Shown here piece by piece: positions 775 to 60,089 of a stretch of DNA of 64,000 nt. The stretch's first letter is position 1; every line of letters starts with the position of its first letter. The notes beneath the pieces are model-generated. The model worked only from the letters and a program-made list of their open reading frames with translations, was not told the origin of the DNA and did not search any database. Origin of the DNA: Eledone cirrhosa (lineage: Eukaryota). Position numbers and translations under genes: made by a program. The DNA lies in the NCBI GenBank assembly GCA_964016885.1, contig OZ024743.1:38440001-38504000 (forward strand), written 5' to 3'.

Positions 775-1664
775 CCAGCATTGAGGCGAATTACCTTACA
801 GATTTAGAAGGGTCCTAAACAAGCTCAAATTAAATATTAAGGTAGTTGAAAGACCAGGTATTCCCATAAAAACCCTAATTAGTAAAACATACCCATTTCA
901 AAGAACCCATTGAACTGGTTGGAGATGCATTATCTGCAAGCGAAGCCTGCAAACTAACTGTAAAACTAGAAACGTACTGTATAGCATAAGATGTACTGAG
1001 GGACAGTGTAGGGAAAAGAACATAGGTGAAACAGCCAGTAGCCTAGGAGAAAGGATAAGTGAAAGACTCACCACTACTACACCAGCATGCCAAAATAGAA
1101 CATAGGGGCACATTAGAGAACATAGGGCTAATAATTATATCCATATACTGAAAAGTTGCAATGCTCAGACAAATCATAAACAAAGTCCAACCAAAATTAA
1201 ACAGAAAACATGAGTGGAATAGCAACATCACAACAAGTAATTAAGGACGAAATGAAGACATTCAGCTACACACAAAAACCAGACTAACAAAACAAATCTG
1301 ACACACACAGATTGAAAAAACCACCAACTAGTGTCAAGTAAATAAGCACATAAATAAATAAAAATAGACACATATAACCGGACGTAACGCATTTGTAAGG
1401 TAAGCACACACCAGCCAACACATAAACACATGGTGGTGTAGGACAGAACAAACGGGAGACAAAATAAAATCCTAGTCACTGAGGAGGTCACAAAATCTGT
1501 GACGAAAGAGCTTTGTCAATATATAAATAACCACCCGGTTATCGAACCAAGCAACCAACCAATCAATCATCCATCCAGCCAACCAGCCAACGGGAAATGT
1601 ATAATGAATTGAAGAGAAAACCAACAGGTGTTTTATTGGCAGCATCGCCCACCCTAAGTATAAC
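775..1664 (+). mobile_element. Penelope-like element 3' fragment (decayed GIY-YIG endonuclease) plus pLTR with hammerhead
   Basis: Plus-strand translation gives KLNIKVVERPGIPIKTLISKTYPF...CIICK...NCKTRNVLYSIRCTEGQC...IGETASSLGERISE...PKLNRKHEWN, matching the C-terminus of the 44897-46348 ORF, with stops and frameshifts. A pLTR related to 7658-8170 follows and ends at a (TA)n tract. Confidence 0.9.
1474..1518 (+). ncRNA. Type I minimal hammerhead motif in PLE pLTR
   Basis: agtca CTGAGGA g gtcaca-aaatc-tgtgac GAAA gagc TT tgtca; perfect 6-bp stem II, partly decayed stem I. Confidence 0.7.
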
Positions 1665-1767
1665 TATATATATATATATATATATATATATATATATATA
1701 TATATATATATATATATATATATATATATATATATATATATATATATATATATATATATATATATAT
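1665..1767. repeat. (TA)n microsatellite, representative of dozens in the window
   Basis: Direct inspection. Confidence 0.99.
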
Positions 1768-2539
1768 GTGCGTGTGTGCCTCTTTCTCCATCTCTCTTTT
1801 AAAAGCCCTTTACCTCTTTCCATTTTTCGTAGATATATTATACAAAATAATAGTGAAACTGTCTCGAAGGTATTCGTTGAACTCAGAGAGCAGAAATACA
1901 AATATTATTTCTAAGGGAGAAATAATTAATTATTCAGCAATATTTATTTTTGATATGGTCTATTTCATCCATTAATTCCGCAAAATATGTTACGATTATT
2001 TCATGAATCTGAAATAAAAATGTATTTTTTTCTTTCATAATCCATTCAATAGATATTTCTAACGTATTTTCAAAGATTATTAACATTTTATCATGTTATT
2101 TAAATATAAATCCCATTAGCCGTAGATAAATCTAATGAGTCATATTTTTTTCAGAAACTCAAAATATGCATATTGACAAGATAATAATCTTTTCATGGTG
2201 ATGTTACATTCCGAGAAACTAGATACAGTTACGCTTATTATAAAATGCAATAAGTATAGATTCTATAGAGATGAAATCTGAGCATAAAATATCTAAGGAG
2301 AGGCTCTAAATAGAATATCTGAAGATGATACCATTCATATTGATGATCAAAAGTGCCTACATGAATTTATTGAATAATGTTTCTTGTTTAGACACATGAT
2401 ATAGGTGAGCGACAGTCCTTTTCAGGACGCATTTAGCGCAGGTGCTTCTCCTTAGCCATCAGAATCCATTTTCGTGTCCATCCCAAAGCTAATGATGTCT
2501 AGCAACGTTATTAATCAGTAATTACGGTGAATTGCCAGT

Positions 2540-2712
2540 ATCAGTAGAGTGACGGATATGCGTTCCAGCATAGTTACATCCCTTTACGATCTGTGTTCAA
2601 ATCCCGCCGAAGTTAACTTTGCCTTTCATCCTTACGGGGGTCGCTAAAATAAAGTACCATTAATATACTGCGATTATTGCTGGCCTTGTGTCAAAAGTAG
2701 AAACAGTTATTA
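2540..2712 (+). mobile_element. tRNA-derived SINE, family A
   Basis: B-box-like gttcaaatcc followed by the core aactttgcctttcatcc...ggggtcg.taaaataaagtacca and tail ggccttgtgtcaaaagtagaaaca. Several copies occur in the window. Confidence 0.75.
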
Positions 2713-3804
2713 ATCAGTAATTACCTTAATAAGTAGTTGTATGCATTTCAAGAGTCACGTGTTTATTCTCTATAAAATTCAAAGGCAAAAATATGGGAAT
2801 TTTTCAATAAAATAAATTGATTAAAACACGTTAGATATACTAGCAGAAAAACCTCGGGTGGTTTTCTGCTGGAATGTGTAGTGTACATATTGATATTATA
2901 CGCAATTAAAATCGTAAGTGACAATATCCTCAGAAACTGAACGAACACTGCGTTACACTCTCTTATGTAATCAGTAACGTAATCCATGATACATTAAAAA
3001 AAGACGATATTATATATAAACGGCATTAGGAGAAAATTAGTGACGGAAATATATGAATGTTTATTTCAGCGATCGCTAACCGGAAGTGTAGACATTTGAA
3101 CATTTTAAAGAAGTGAATCTTTAAATAAACAATGAAATATATTTAATAAACAGCTAGGAAATTTAGTAGATAAATTATGTAATATTCATTATTATTTTTC
3201 AAAGTAATCCATCTTATTTTACTAATGGGATACAAAATTATACCGTTCGCAGTCCCGCACTCATTACTTTATTATAGTTTAGATGCCTGTAATTTTACCT
3301 TCCCTACTCCATCTACATATCCATTGTCTTTAATAAATTCAGGGATATAGCGACGAGAGAAATTGCATAAATATTCTGCCACCTCTCCAACATTTGGTTA
3401 TTCCCGTCACAATTGGATAATCTAAAACATCAAGCAACAACATGTCACTCTCTTAATTGTCATTTACCTCGTTATTTGTTATTCAAGAGCAAACTCTCAT
3501 TTTGTATATTTTGTGCATATTTGGTCCTCATCCTAAATCTGTTATCACGATATATTTTAAATTAAGCCTTTCTTTTTTATTGTGTATTGTAATTTCCCAT
3601 ATAAACATGGCATTTATGACATCATGTCATTTAAAAACCCTAAACACGTCATTTATCAAAGATAAATCTTCTAGAGAACTTCAATCAAAATGTCACTTCC
3701 ATTTCGATTAAATTCATCAGCATCAACACTACAATTAATACCAATTTTCACCTATCTATCCTTAATCATTGAGAAACTTTATCGTAACTCATCCGTCTCT
3801 AAGG

Positions 3805-4137
3805 ATCATATATAATTCTGAACTCGATATATTTGATATATTTCACATAGTGTAAGATAAAGTTGATTAAGTTAGATATACACATATACTTGAGAAGAAT
3901 GTTTCATACATTCAAAACATAATCACAATCATTAGGTATTCAGTGATACATGAGATATAACTACATTTAAATTGAAGACATTTAGATAATCTGGAATGGC
4001 TATACATGTTATCACTCTTTTGATAGTAACTATGCTTTAATTTTATTGTAGGCCTTCTGGTGTTTACCTGAATAATGTCTGGCCTCGGGTGGTTAATTTT
4101 ATAAAGAATATTTACTAAGTACACTCCGCATGTATTA
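3805..4137. repeat. Left arm of a ~330-bp inverted repeat (partner 6819-7151)
   Basis: Highly similar to the reverse complement of 6819-7151, e.g. tttactaagtacactccgcatgtatta / taatacatgcggagtgtacttagtaaa. Confidence 0.9.
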
Positions 4138-4221
4138 TATATATTTTTGTTTATTTTTTATATTATTTCGTCTTATTTTGTAATTTGATATAGTGTGTGT
4201 GTGTGTATATATATATATATA

Positions 4222-58020: not shown

Positions 58021-58197
58021 TATTGTTATACTTTGGGAGGGTCATGTTGCCAATAAGAAACACACGCACCACTAGCTTTCACTTCAGTTTATTATATATT
58101 TATAAATTTACAAATTTAAAAATTTATAAATTTCTGGTTGGTTGGTTGGTTCCACAACCATATAGTTGTTTATATATAGTCATAGTCCTTTCGTCAC
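58021..58197 (-). mobile_element. Solo PLE pLTR terminal fragment (7658 family), truncated inside the HHR
   Basis: Close match to 7658-7842, ending at tcctttcgtcac. Confidence 0.88.
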
Positions 58198-58205
58198 GAA
58201 ATATT

Positions 58206-58361
58206 GAAGTGCTTACACAACAGTTAGTTCACCATACCGAGAACAATTGTTTCACCTCAGCGGATCCTCAGCTAGTAATTGACGTCCATTATGATCTGAG
58301 GATCCGCTAAGATGAAACAATTGTTCTCGGTATGGTGAACTAACTGTTGTATAACCACTTC
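58206..58361. repeat. Fold-back with degenerate hammerhead cores on both arms (family H6)
   Basis: Arms of ~65 bp around a ~24-nt spacer; each reads CTGAGGA tccgct.ag.t GAAA caattg TTC. Confidence 0.7.
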
Positions 58362-58602
58362 TACCTAACTGGTCCAATGGAATAAGTGCTCTACCACTAA
58401 TGTCTATTACTTTTCAGTGTTCTACCTCTAACTCTCTCTCTCTCTCTCTATATATATATATATATATATATATAGTTAAAGAATGGAAGTGTAACACACA
58501 AGTTATTATATATTGGTAAATGTCAGCATTTTGTCTTCCGTTTACCAATATATATATAAATATATATATATATATATATATATATATATATATATATATA
58601 TA

Positions 58603-58777
58603 AATTCATTTATTTATTGGTGTATGTGTATGTGTGCATGTGTCCGCGTATGTATGTATATATGTACATACATATATATATATACATAAATATATATATA
58701 TATATATGTATGTACATATATACATACATACGCGGACACATGCACACATACACATACACCAATAAATAAATGAATTT
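58603..58777. repeat. Perfect low-complexity palindrome around a (TA)n centre
   Basis: aaattcatttatttattggtgtatgtg...gtccgcgtatg / catacgcggac...caccaataaataaatgaattt. Confidence 0.9.
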
Positions 58778-59126
58778 ATATATATATATATATATATATT
58801 AGAAAGATCGAGTATCGAAAAATCGGCGCACGAGTTCACGATAAACAAAATTCGAAATGAGCGGCAGAGGGCTCAATAATTCAGATGAATCAGAGCTATA
58901 ACTATCGTTAAAATACCGTCACATATAGAACAAGTCTACAATCAACCATACGATAAAAAATCGATAATAGAAGATTCGGGACAAACAGATAAAAAATATC
59001 AATAAAACAATACATCAATAATTTAAATGAATGTAAAATCATACCCGGACCCACTAGAAAGGTGTTAAATCTAGCTTCTTGGGTTTCTGTAAATCCTTAG
59101 ACTGTACTCTATCAGCTCACATATAA

Positions 59127-60089
59127 ATATTGTTATGCTTTGGGAGGGTCATGTTGCCAATAAGAAACACACGCACCAGCTGTTTTCACTTCAATGTATT
59201 ATAAATTAAAATTATAAATTTAGGAATTTATAAATTTACGGTTGGTTGGTTGGTTCCACAACCAGACGAGACGATTGTTCATATATTGTCAAAGTGCTTT
59301 CGTCACATATTATGTGACTTCTTTAGTGACTGGGGATTCTTTTCTTTGCTTTCGTGCCTCTCTTTTTTTCTGTCCTACGCCATCTTGTTTTTGCTGTGTG
59401 CTTACTTTGCGCATGTGTTTCATCCGGATGTATGTGTGTGTTTATATTTGTTTATTTATTTATTTATTTACATGTTACTGGTTAATTGTTTGTTCTATGT
59501 GTGTGTGTTTTTCATTTTGTCCTTAATCGTAAGTTGTGATGTTGCTATTCTATTCATGTTTTCTATTTAATTTTGTTTGGAGTTCATTTATGTTTATTGC
59601 CTTTAAATACGCAATGTTTAGACAAATCACAGAGGCTTTAAACATAAATAAACTCCAACCAAAATTAAATAGAAAACATGAATGGAAGAGCAACATCAAA
59701 CCTTAAAATTAAGGATAACATTAAAACACACACACACACATAGAACAAACAACCAACCAGTAACATGTAAATAAACAAATAAATAAATAAATATAAACAC
59801 ACACAGACACACGGATCTAACACATGCGCAAACTAAGCACACAACAAAAACAAGATGGCGTGGGACCGAACAAAGGAGAGGCGCAAAAGCAAAGAAAAGA
59901 ATCCCCAGTCACTGAAGAGGTCACAGAATGTGTGACCAAAGAACTTTGACAATATAAGAACAATCGTCTCGTCTGGTTGTGGAACCAACCAACCGGACAT
60001 TTATGAATTCCTAAATTTATGAATTGAAGTGAAAGCATCCAGTGCGTGTTTCTTATTGGCAACATGACCCTCCTAAAGCATAACAATAT
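59127..60089. mobile_element. Inverted pair of PLE pLTRs (7658 family), each with a mutated hammerhead (59287-59331 minus, 59907-59950 plus)
   Basis: The two halves are diverged reverse complements, joined through the last GIY-YIG codons (AMFRQITEALNINKLQPKLNRKHEW). The cores read CTAAAGA...GAAA and CTGAAGA...CAAA. Confidence 0.9.

What the first reader, a model, noticed from the sequence alone, without database searches (positions are those of the whole stretch)
1474..60089. Many non-coding, hammerhead-bearing fold-back micro-elements beside (TA)n microsatellites
Seen: most of the short palindromes or inverted repeats in this window (4.2, 6.3, 12.6, 28.8, 47.3, 51.4, 56-57.9, 58.2 and 59.1 kb) contain a type I hammerhead core, YTGANRA-stem II-GAAA-short stem III-UH. 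There are about 20 motifs in roughly ten families with no obvious mutual similarity, mostly adjacent to (TA)n. Known: PLE pLTRs carry minimal type I HHRs, PLE insertions often have an inverted pLTR at the 5' end, and non-autonomous HHR retrozymes exist in animals. Inference: these are not DNA-transposon MITEs but a diverse set of 120-700 bp HHR elements, made or mobilised by PLE RT/GIY-YIG at TA tracts. Standard annotation would probably label them unknown or MITE.
Basis: partly seen in the sequence, partly recalled or inferred. Interest (0 to 1): 0.85.

Follow-up and report, generated by a model that had tools for sequence, protein, structure and literature searches.

The report
Penelope retrotransposon ends carrying hammerhead ribozymes
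The short palindromes beside TA repeats in this octopus-like DNA do carry hammerhead ribozyme motifs, but they are most likely truncated, folded-back ends of Penelope-like retrotransposons, a known product, rather than a new class of element.

Summary
The observation largely holds. 21 of 29 curated motifs keep both hammerhead core boxes, in 10 families. A descriptor finds 16 hits against 2.9 ± 1.7 in 100 shuffles. 7 of the 9 named fold-backs hold an intact core; the other 2 hold only mutated cores. Six other fold-backs hold none, and 9 intact cores lie outside fold-backs. The reading as independent micro-elements is only partly supported. Family A (59.1 kb) and family G are 3' ends of coding Penelope-like elements (PLEs). 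Family C (28.8 kb) continues upstream in many genomic copies, into sequence collinear with a relative lying 3' of a GIY-YIG remnant. All six two-core fold-backs are head-to-head. Several have one arm 54-76 nt longer (the PLE 'tail'), and inversion junctions vary between copies. Opposite-strand hammerhead pairs 100-700 bp apart, inverted pseudo-LTRs, tails and (TA)n targeting are all in print. Two points are less ordinary. C copies share a 5' boundary from which inversions start, 4 of 8 at 5-nt microhomologies, which fits cDNA snap-back. The motif density is also very high. B, D, E, F, J and K have no coding partner identified. Cleavage and expression were not tested.

The parts
782..1664 (+). 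Family A: decayed PLE GIY-YIG end, 3' UTR, HHR core at 1479, 3' end at (TA)n
4226..4857 (+). Family B fold-back: inverted arm 4226-4429 lacking the HHR and the tail; sense copy ~4430-4857 with HHR at 4557 and a 57-nt tail
6270..6769 (-). Family J fold-back; U3-A8 HHR at 6421 with long stem II in the left arm; right arm has the core deleted
6813..7577 (-). Family O: decayed HHR-like core at 7386; its 3' part recurs inverted at 3805-4143
7660..8612 (-). Family A: GIY-YIG C-terminus (Pfam PF01541), 3' UTR, intact three-stem HHR at 7862, 3' end at (TA)n
12582..13300 (-). Family B: sense copy with tail, partial tandem copy (HHRs at 12956 and 13129, 173 nt apart) and inverted arm
13507..13900 (-). 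Family N: HHR at 13635 below a CA-rich tract, no fold-back (upstream limit approximate)
19045..19263 (-). C2, diverged relative of C, with mutated HHR at 19191 and the upstream sequence that long C copies carry
20445..20971 (-). GIY-YIG remnant of a second PLE lineage (CX4CXXC linker), ~1.2 kb upstream of C2 on the same strand
21056..21320 (-). Family H: U3-A8 HHR at 21138, 3' end at (TA)n, no fold-back (upstream limit approximate)
28825..29177 (.). Family C fold-back centred at 29035; HHRs at 28996 (-) and 29075 (+); left arm 68 nt longer (tail)
39357..39833 (+). Family B: deleted inverted arm plus sense copy with HHR at 39560 and tail; same 5' start as the 4.4-kb copy
44328..46674 (-). Family G coding PLE (RT + GIY-YIG, 489-aa open frame), HHR at 44631, tail, 3' end at (TA)n
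47264..47411 (.). Family D fold-back; HHR cores at 47336 (-) and 47344 (+), back to back
47544..50375 (-). Family G: decayed ORF plus two tandem 3' UTR copies with HHRs at 48359 and 47829
50452..50665 (-). Family I, mutated HHR at 50566; relatives at 15593-15759 and 32903-33004, the latter 3' of a GIY-YIG remnant (33390-33632)
51370..51682 (.). Family E fold-back 51370-51611 (arms 93% alike), HHRs at 51451 (-) and 51530 (+), 70-nt candidate tail on the right
55083..55293 (+). Family C solo copy between TA tracts; intact U3-A8 HHR at 55123 (H17 at 55152); 5' boundary shared with the 29035 fold-back centre
56174..57865 (.). Family K fold-back arms 56174-56466 and 57573-57865 around (TA)n and later inserts; cores at 56263 and 57776 lack G12
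58021..58197 (-). Family A 3' end truncated inside HHR stem II
58206..58361 (.). Family F fold-back; cores at 58271 (-) and 58296 (+), stems weak; 70-nt candidate tail on the right
59127..60137 (.). Family A fold-back: both arms start in the GIY-YIG C-terminal codons; mutated cores at 59326 and 59912; tail 60090-60137 on the right arm only

Best explanation
The fold-backs are likely short insertion products of about ten Penelope-like retrotransposon (PLE) lineages, each carrying the minimal hammerhead of its pseudo-LTR. Inferred mechanism: the PLE GIY-YIG nicks a TA-rich tract. The RT starts at one of two sites downstream of the hammerhead, which gives the optional 50-75-nt tail. It then copies a short stretch until it stalls or reaches the RNA 5' end. 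The cDNA 3' end likely folds back on a few complementary bases and primes the second, head-to-head arm. Shown here: the motifs, their outward orientation, unequal outer ends, variable inner junctions, coding links for A and G, and the upstream continuation of C. The hammerhead is predicted to be a passenger in the palindrome, because a read-through RNA would pair the two arms and unfold it.
For: (1) A carries GIY-YIG codons at 782-1297, 8178-8600 and 59605-59706; G carries RT + GIY-YIG; nearest protein to G is Octopus vulgaris, 65%. (2) All 6 fold-backs with two cores point outward, i.e. head-to-head, the usual PLE arrangement (PMC3846280). (3) Tail: in B, C, E and A one arm ends 1-2 nt from a microsatellite or at the family's short end, and the other runs 54-76 nt further. 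D and F have 69-70 nt to the next microsatellite on one side (background for 40-80 nt: 7.3%). Reads confirm a second C 3' end at 55228-55232 followed by TA (57 contigs in X1, 206 reads in X7, also X4), about 62 nt short of 55293. (4) Inner junctions vary: B inverted arms start at three different points 3' of the cleavage site; C shows 9 listed opposite-strand joints, the internal side at 55083-55150. (5) C is not self-contained: loose ends before 55083 share one upstream sequence in all 4 runs (48 contigs X1; 550 reads X7; contigs with 204- and 132-letter overhangs in X4, X5). Its best match in the whole window lies exactly upstream of C2 (score 35; 0 of 1000 shuffles of the region reach it). 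(6) Snap-back: all 8 asymmetric C joints have one side at 55083-55095 (17% chance each), and 4 of 8 sit at 5-nt complementary microhomologies against 94 of 1170 background pairs. (7) The motifs match published PLE hammerheads: extra base after A9, U.U at 10.1-11.1, 0-2-nt palindromic loop III, U3-A8. (8) Predicted stem II pairing falls to 0.000 in the whole fold-back for C, D and B, the 3 of 5 that the script parsed.
Against: No coding partner was found for B, D, E, F, J, K, H, N or O; the profile search of the window hit none of them, and no genome was held. The C2-to-ORF link is positional across 1.2 kb of CA-rich DNA. Fixed 5' ends (C at 55083 in a solo copy, in the fold-back centre and in 3 contigs plus 21 reads with the same-point inversion; two B copies; both K arms) are not what random truncation gives and fit short non-autonomous masters as well. 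Candidate tails of D, E and F rest on single loci; D and F lack a microsatellite at the short arm (2423 and 27 nt), and J and K do not fit the 50-75-nt pattern. The joint tables show only the best-supported rows. Even in single arms the predicted stem II probabilities are low (0.005-0.12), and C/C2 covariation (2 compensatory pairs, 1 broken) is not significant with 2 distinct sequences (124 of 500 shuffles). PMC3846280 argues for self-priming on an antisense RNA template rather than cDNA snap-back; these data do not separate the two.
Confidence: 0.68

Rival explanations
1. Several families are non-autonomous, SINE-like PLE derivatives: 200-450-nt masters with their own promoter, hammerhead and RT start sites, mobilised in trans by coding PLEs; the fold-backs are still made anew at insertion.
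For: Fixed 5' boundaries in C, B and K; C is very abundant (summed depth 0.67-1.5 million against 7.55 in unique flank; at least thousands of copies after allowing for contig overlap). pLTR cis-sequences suffice for mobilisation in trans (PMC3846280). Non-autonomous Chlamys elements exist, and retrozymes derive from pLTRs. The B tandem at 12.6 kb has two cores 173 nt apart.
Against: C contigs identical or near-identical to the window copy continue upstream (X4 record 14, 0 differences; X5 record 18). A fixed 5' end is equally explained by a transcription start inside the pLTR of a coding master. A and G are coding.
Confidence: 0.24
2. The palindrome itself is the mobile unit, amplified as a whole (a hammerhead-bearing hairpin RNA or a MITE-like DNA).
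For: Near-symmetric centres in C, E, F and K, with arms 88-96% alike. The same-point C inversion is seen in 3 contigs (depth 250, ~33x flank) and 21 reads.
Against: That joint is a tiny share of C depth; other joints vary; solo copies exist; outer ends are unequal; the hammerhead is predicted not to fold in the hairpin; no family occurs twice in the window as the same palindrome.
Confidence: 0.05
3. The fold-backs arose after insertion, by host repair or replication errors at TA tracts, or are assembly artefacts.
For: TA tracts are fragile (general knowledge); K has a TA tract at its centre.
Against: Arms are only 88-96% alike, which an assembly artefact would not give. Strand-change joints occur in independent raw reads (X7). 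Orientation is always head-to-head, and the tail asymmetry follows element ends.
Confidence: 0.03

Closest known systems
Minimal hammerheads of metazoan PLEs (Cervera and de la Pena 2014, PMC4209133; parts 1-2 of 4 read)
   Same: Type I minimal cores with an unpaired base after A9, palindromic helix III and a U3-A8 variant; many dissimilar families per genome; mostly single motifs; dual motifs ~100-700 bp apart on opposite strands, ascribed to truncated PLEs.
   Different: Here some pairs are only 8-79 nt apart, and the density (about 200 descriptor hits per Mb above background in this selected window) is far above what their counts of 2,000-9,000 per genome imply. The parts read do not mention octopus.
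EN+ PLE insertion structure: inverted pLTR, tail, (TA)n bias (Craig 2021 PMC8557442; Arkhipova 2013 PMC3846280; Frangieh 2024 PMC11167929)
   Same: 5'-truncated inverted copy at the 5' end, partial tandems, optional tail from two RT start sites, palindromic junctions, solo pLTRs, (TA)n targets. An octopus Hydra-clade PLE with HHR and (TA)n preference is listed.
   Different: Tails here are 48-76 nt rather than 30-40. Many products have no ORF sequence at all. Read data show a fixed 5' boundary with microhomology at half of the asymmetric inversions.
Non-LTR retrozymes (PMC7229834, passages; bioRxiv 10.64898/2026.07.22.740005, parts 1-3 of 5)
   Same: Non-coding, type I HHR, pLTR-related, a few hundred bp.
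   Different: Retrozymes are head-to-tail tandems that release monomers and circles; here copies are dispersed monomers or head-to-head pairs, and only one non-coding two-core tandem (B, 173 nt) is seen.
Non-autonomous Chlamys PLEs such as MRC1 (PMC8557442 section 10)
   Same: Non-coding elements with PLE 3' ends and pLTR formation.
   Different: Those lack canonical HHRs and are shown to be active; non-autonomous status is unproven here.
MITEs
   Same: Short, non-coding, inverted-repeat structure beside TA.
   Different: Whole-arm fold-backs with unequal ends and variable centres; solo arms occur. The window's one MITE-like element (18504-19002) has no HHR.

Membership tests
EN+ Penelope-like elements | RT plus C-terminal GIY-YIG ORF upstream of the terminal repeat | tested here: met
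   Met for G (RT + GIY-YIG) and A (GIY-YIG end)
EN+ Penelope-like elements | Coding master for families B, C, D, E, F, J, K | tested here: inconclusive
   C linked indirectly through C2 and an upstream GIY-YIG remnant; none found for the rest; no genome held
EN+ Penelope-like elements | HHR on the sense strand near the 3' end | tested here: met
   A and G cores lie 3' of the ORF on its strand
EN+ Penelope-like elements | Inverted 5'-truncated copy joined head-to-head at the 5' end | tested here: met
   6 of 6 two-core fold-backs point outward; B copies
EN+ Penelope-like elements | Optional tail at one end | tested here: met
   A, B, C and G by comparison of copies; only candidate in D, E, F; not seen in J, K
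EN+ Penelope-like elements | Clade (Neptune, Nematis, Poseidon, Hydra) by RT phylogeny | not tested
   CX4CXXC linkers are visible in both ORF types, as described for Neptune/Nematis; no reference sequences were available to the tools
Minimal type I hammerhead ribozyme | Core boxes, stem II, palindromic stem III, stem I | tested here: met
   21 of 29 have both boxes; 6 pass a three-stem descriptor; Rfam models do not detect them
Minimal type I hammerhead ribozyme | Self-cleavage at H17 | not testable with these tools
   Needs in vitro transcription; no RNA run was listed
Non-LTR retrozyme | Head-to-tail tandem of non-coding units, each with an HHR | tested here: not met
   Only one partial B tandem; the other non-coding copies are monomers or head-to-head
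Non-LTR retrozyme | Circular RNA monomers | not testable with these tools
   No RNA run listed
MITE | Fixed unit with equal terminal inverted repeats at both ends | tested here: not met
   Unequal ends, variable centres and solo arms

The most novel reading that the evidence does not exclude
Octopus genomes are populated by several families of self-propagating PLE-dependent SINEs: 200-450-nt pLTR-only masters with a fixed 5' start, a hammerhead and two RT start sites. They fold back by cDNA snap-back at insertion and make these the most hammerhead-dense genomes known (250,000-570,000 motifs if this window were typical of 2.8 Gb, against up to 120,000 reported for axolotl), much of it now filed as unclassified SINE or MITE.
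Probability: 0.22. Interest if true: 0.6.

Novelty: new member of a known kind. Interest (0 to 1): 0.3.

Why it matters
The class is known, so this is mostly an annotation point: many short palindromes and SINE-like repeats in octopus are probably PLE ends. A 2026 O. vulgaris annotation lists 893 unclassified SINE families against 31 PLE families among recently active ones, so PLE content may be undercounted (inference). The thousands of very short family C copies, with a fixed 5' boundary, two 3' ends and microhomology joints, form a natural data set for an open question that Craig 2021 names: how PLEs form inverted structures. It could decide between cDNA snap-back and antisense self-priming.

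Tried and rejected
Whole genome: none held. Strict HHR descriptors missed most motifs. Rfam: no hammerhead family in the rows shown. Family C pattern: 0 matches in metagenome and viral contigs. G relatives in metagenome contigs: 87 pattern matches, none confirmed. 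Earlier findings: nothing returned. Expression: no RNA holder listed, which is no evidence either way. K as a Hydra endonuclease C-terminus: a by-eye resemblance only. A 40-aa frame found no homologue and one hit, P0099 (E=2.8e-4), a four-fold repeat protein whose score sums the repeats, rejected. An open frame through two B copies was not followed up. Family P has a CTGACGA in one copy, but reads show it is not conserved, so it was left out of the 29. A MAFFT alignment across families did not keep the structure, so no covariance model was built. The folding test did not parse E and F. X1 depth (ratio ~140,000-200,000) was rejected as a copy number, because overlapping contigs are summed; dividing by 31 gives ~4,600-6,500, and RAD reads give ~2,000 if the genome is 2.8 Gb. 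Literature searches for an octopus or cephalopod HHR survey and for solo pLTR or fold-back terms found only the papers cited. Subscription journals, Repbase/Dfam, the Zenodo library of PMC13282606 and bioRxiv supplements were not visible and could already contain these families.

Full report
Setting. The window is AT-rich, holds about 95 (TA)6+ tracts and is animal DNA. The nearest protein to its longest ORF is from Octopus vulgaris at 65% identity, so I call it octopus-like. No whole genome was held. The evidence comes from the window, one read-laying run and the literature.

Motifs. A strict type I descriptor found nothing, and one allowing 0-nt loop III found 3-4. Most motifs have an extra base after A9 or a mismatch at 10.1-11.1, exactly as in published PLE hammerheads (File S2 of PMC8557442). 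With these allowed there are 16 hits against 2.93 ± 1.66 in 100 shuffles, and 6 against 0.29 with all three stems. Hand curation gives 29 motifs, 21 with both core boxes intact, in 10 families. Rfam does not detect them. C and its relative C2 differ by two compensatory pairs and one broken pair, which is not significant with two sequences.

Fold-backs. Masked self-BLAST gives 15 local fold-backs. Six hold none. The automatic test is modest: 4 of 15 contain a descriptor hit against 1.25 expected (259 of 10,000 random placements). Nine intact cores lie outside fold-backs, so the motif marks the element family, not the palindrome. 22 of 30 ends lie within 10 bp of (TA)4+ against a 3.7% background; the ends were hand-picked and partly set by masking.

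Links to coding PLEs. Family G encodes RT and GIY-YIG at 44.9-46.7 and 48.6-50.4 kb. Family A has GIY-YIG codons at 0.8-1.3 and 8.2-8.6 kb, and both arms of the 59.1-kb fold-back begin inside those codons. That fold-back is thus a truncation product. A second PLE lineage left GIY-YIG remnants at 20.4-21.0 and 33.4-33.6 kb. The first lies 1.2 kb upstream of C2, the second upstream of a family I copy; both links are positional. No coding remnant adjoins B, D, E, F, J, K, H, N or O.

Architecture. All six fold-backs with two cores are head-to-head. In A, B and C one arm stops at a short 3' end and the other carries a further 48-68 nt before (TA)n; G copies show the same two ends. E, D and F have 69-70 nt to the next microsatellite on one side, while J and K do not fit. 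The three B loci have inverted arms starting at different points, and one has a partial tandem with cores 173 nt apart. These are the structures described for PLEs: inverted 5'-truncated copy, partial tandem, tail and (TA)n bias (PMC8557442); tail as the distance between two internal RT start sites, with HHR cleavage not needed for insertion in vitro (PMC11167929); palindromic junctions and solo pLTRs (PMC3846280). Cervera and de la Pena already reported dual minimal HHRs ~100-700 bp apart on opposite strands and ascribed them to truncated PLEs.

Family C in reads. Four runs were laid on 53341-55296. C is abundant, at least thousands of copies, and is present in runs labelled as two further organisms. 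A second 3' end at 55228-55232 followed by TA is seen in three runs. Before 55083, some copies meet TA (37 contigs at 55077), but many continue with one shared sequence (48 contigs in X1, 550 reads in X7, long overhangs in X4 and X5). That sequence aligns best, over both strands of the window, immediately upstream of C2. So C is the end of a longer element. Yet 55083 is special. The solo copy starts there and the 28.8-kb fold-back is centred there. All 8 asymmetric strand-change joints listed have one side at 55083-55095 and the other at 55113-55150, and 4 of 8 sit at 5-nt complementary microhomologies against 8% of background pairs. Only the best-supported rows were shown, so this is a partial list.

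Mechanism. My reading (0.68) is that RT primed at a nicked TA tract starts downstream of the hammerhead, often in the first pLTR of the transcript. It runs to an RNA 5' end near the fixed boundary or stalls, and the cDNA end snaps back to prime the inverted arm. The nick, the transcription start and the snap-back are inferred; the ends, joints and orientation are shown. An antisense self-priming model is not excluded. The boundary follows CAG in both C and C2, and the D. virilis pLTR intron ends next to its HHR, so a splice site is another candidate. In the three fold-backs parsed, the predicted stem II pairing drops to zero, which argues against the palindrome being a self-cleaving RNA unit. 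The main rival (0.24) is that some families are non-autonomous SINE-like masters; fixed 5' ends in B, C and K fit it, and only genome-wide trees can decide.

Verdict. They are new members, with two leads: the fixed boundary with microhomology joints, and a density that would extrapolate to 250,000-570,000 motifs per 2.8 Gb from a window chosen for them. Papers seen: bioRxiv 2026.07.22.740005 (parts 1-3 of 5); PMC8557442 (abstract, passages, sections 10-11, supplement rows); PMC11167929 and PMC4209133 (parts 1-2 of 4); PMC3846280 (passages, discussion); PMC7229834 (passages); PMC13282606 (parts 1-2 of 3). The mariner reading of 18.5 kb is recalled, not tested.

Noticed in passing
window 18504-19002: 500-bp element with 52-bp terminal inverted repeats starting TACGAG after TA on both sides and no hammerhead; looks like a Tc1/mariner-type MITE (terminal motif recalled).
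   Followed up: partly
window 33677-36400 (-): Decayed LINE-type retrotransposon in several frames, weak RVT_1 hit.
   Followed up: no
window 53341-53560, 32520-32735, 58800-59050: Family P: three copies start at the same point beside (TA)n; high read depth in three of four runs; HHR-like boxes not conserved.
   Followed up: partly
window 11928-12177 and 57060-57314: Family Q, 82% alike, both beside (TA)n, no hammerhead seen; one copy sits inside the K fold-back.
   Followed up: no
window 2531-2712, 17000-17172, 25814-25957, 41899-42052, 55883-55952: Dispersed 70-180-bp repeat family, 79-86% alike, SINE-like.
   Followed up: no
window 50945-51346, 24749-24811, 27607-27694, 60341-60466: Older or short fold-backs with no recognisable hammerhead.
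   Followed up: partly
window 55083 and 19232: The C 5' boundary follows CAG in long C copies and in C2, a possible 3' splice site, though the upstream sequence is A-rich.
   Followed up: partly
window 55118-55119: About half or more of C depth carries a two-base variant in the 5' strand of stem I, and a loose-end consensus suggests a matching change on the 3' strand; linkage on one molecule not shown.
   Followed up: partly
window 6330-6421 (-): Family J hammerhead has a ~57-nt stem II region, and the right arm has the core cleanly deleted.
   Followed up: partly
window 4425-4600 and 39430-39600: The same reading frame stays open for 56-58 codons through the hammerhead in two B copies; may be chance.
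   Followed up: no
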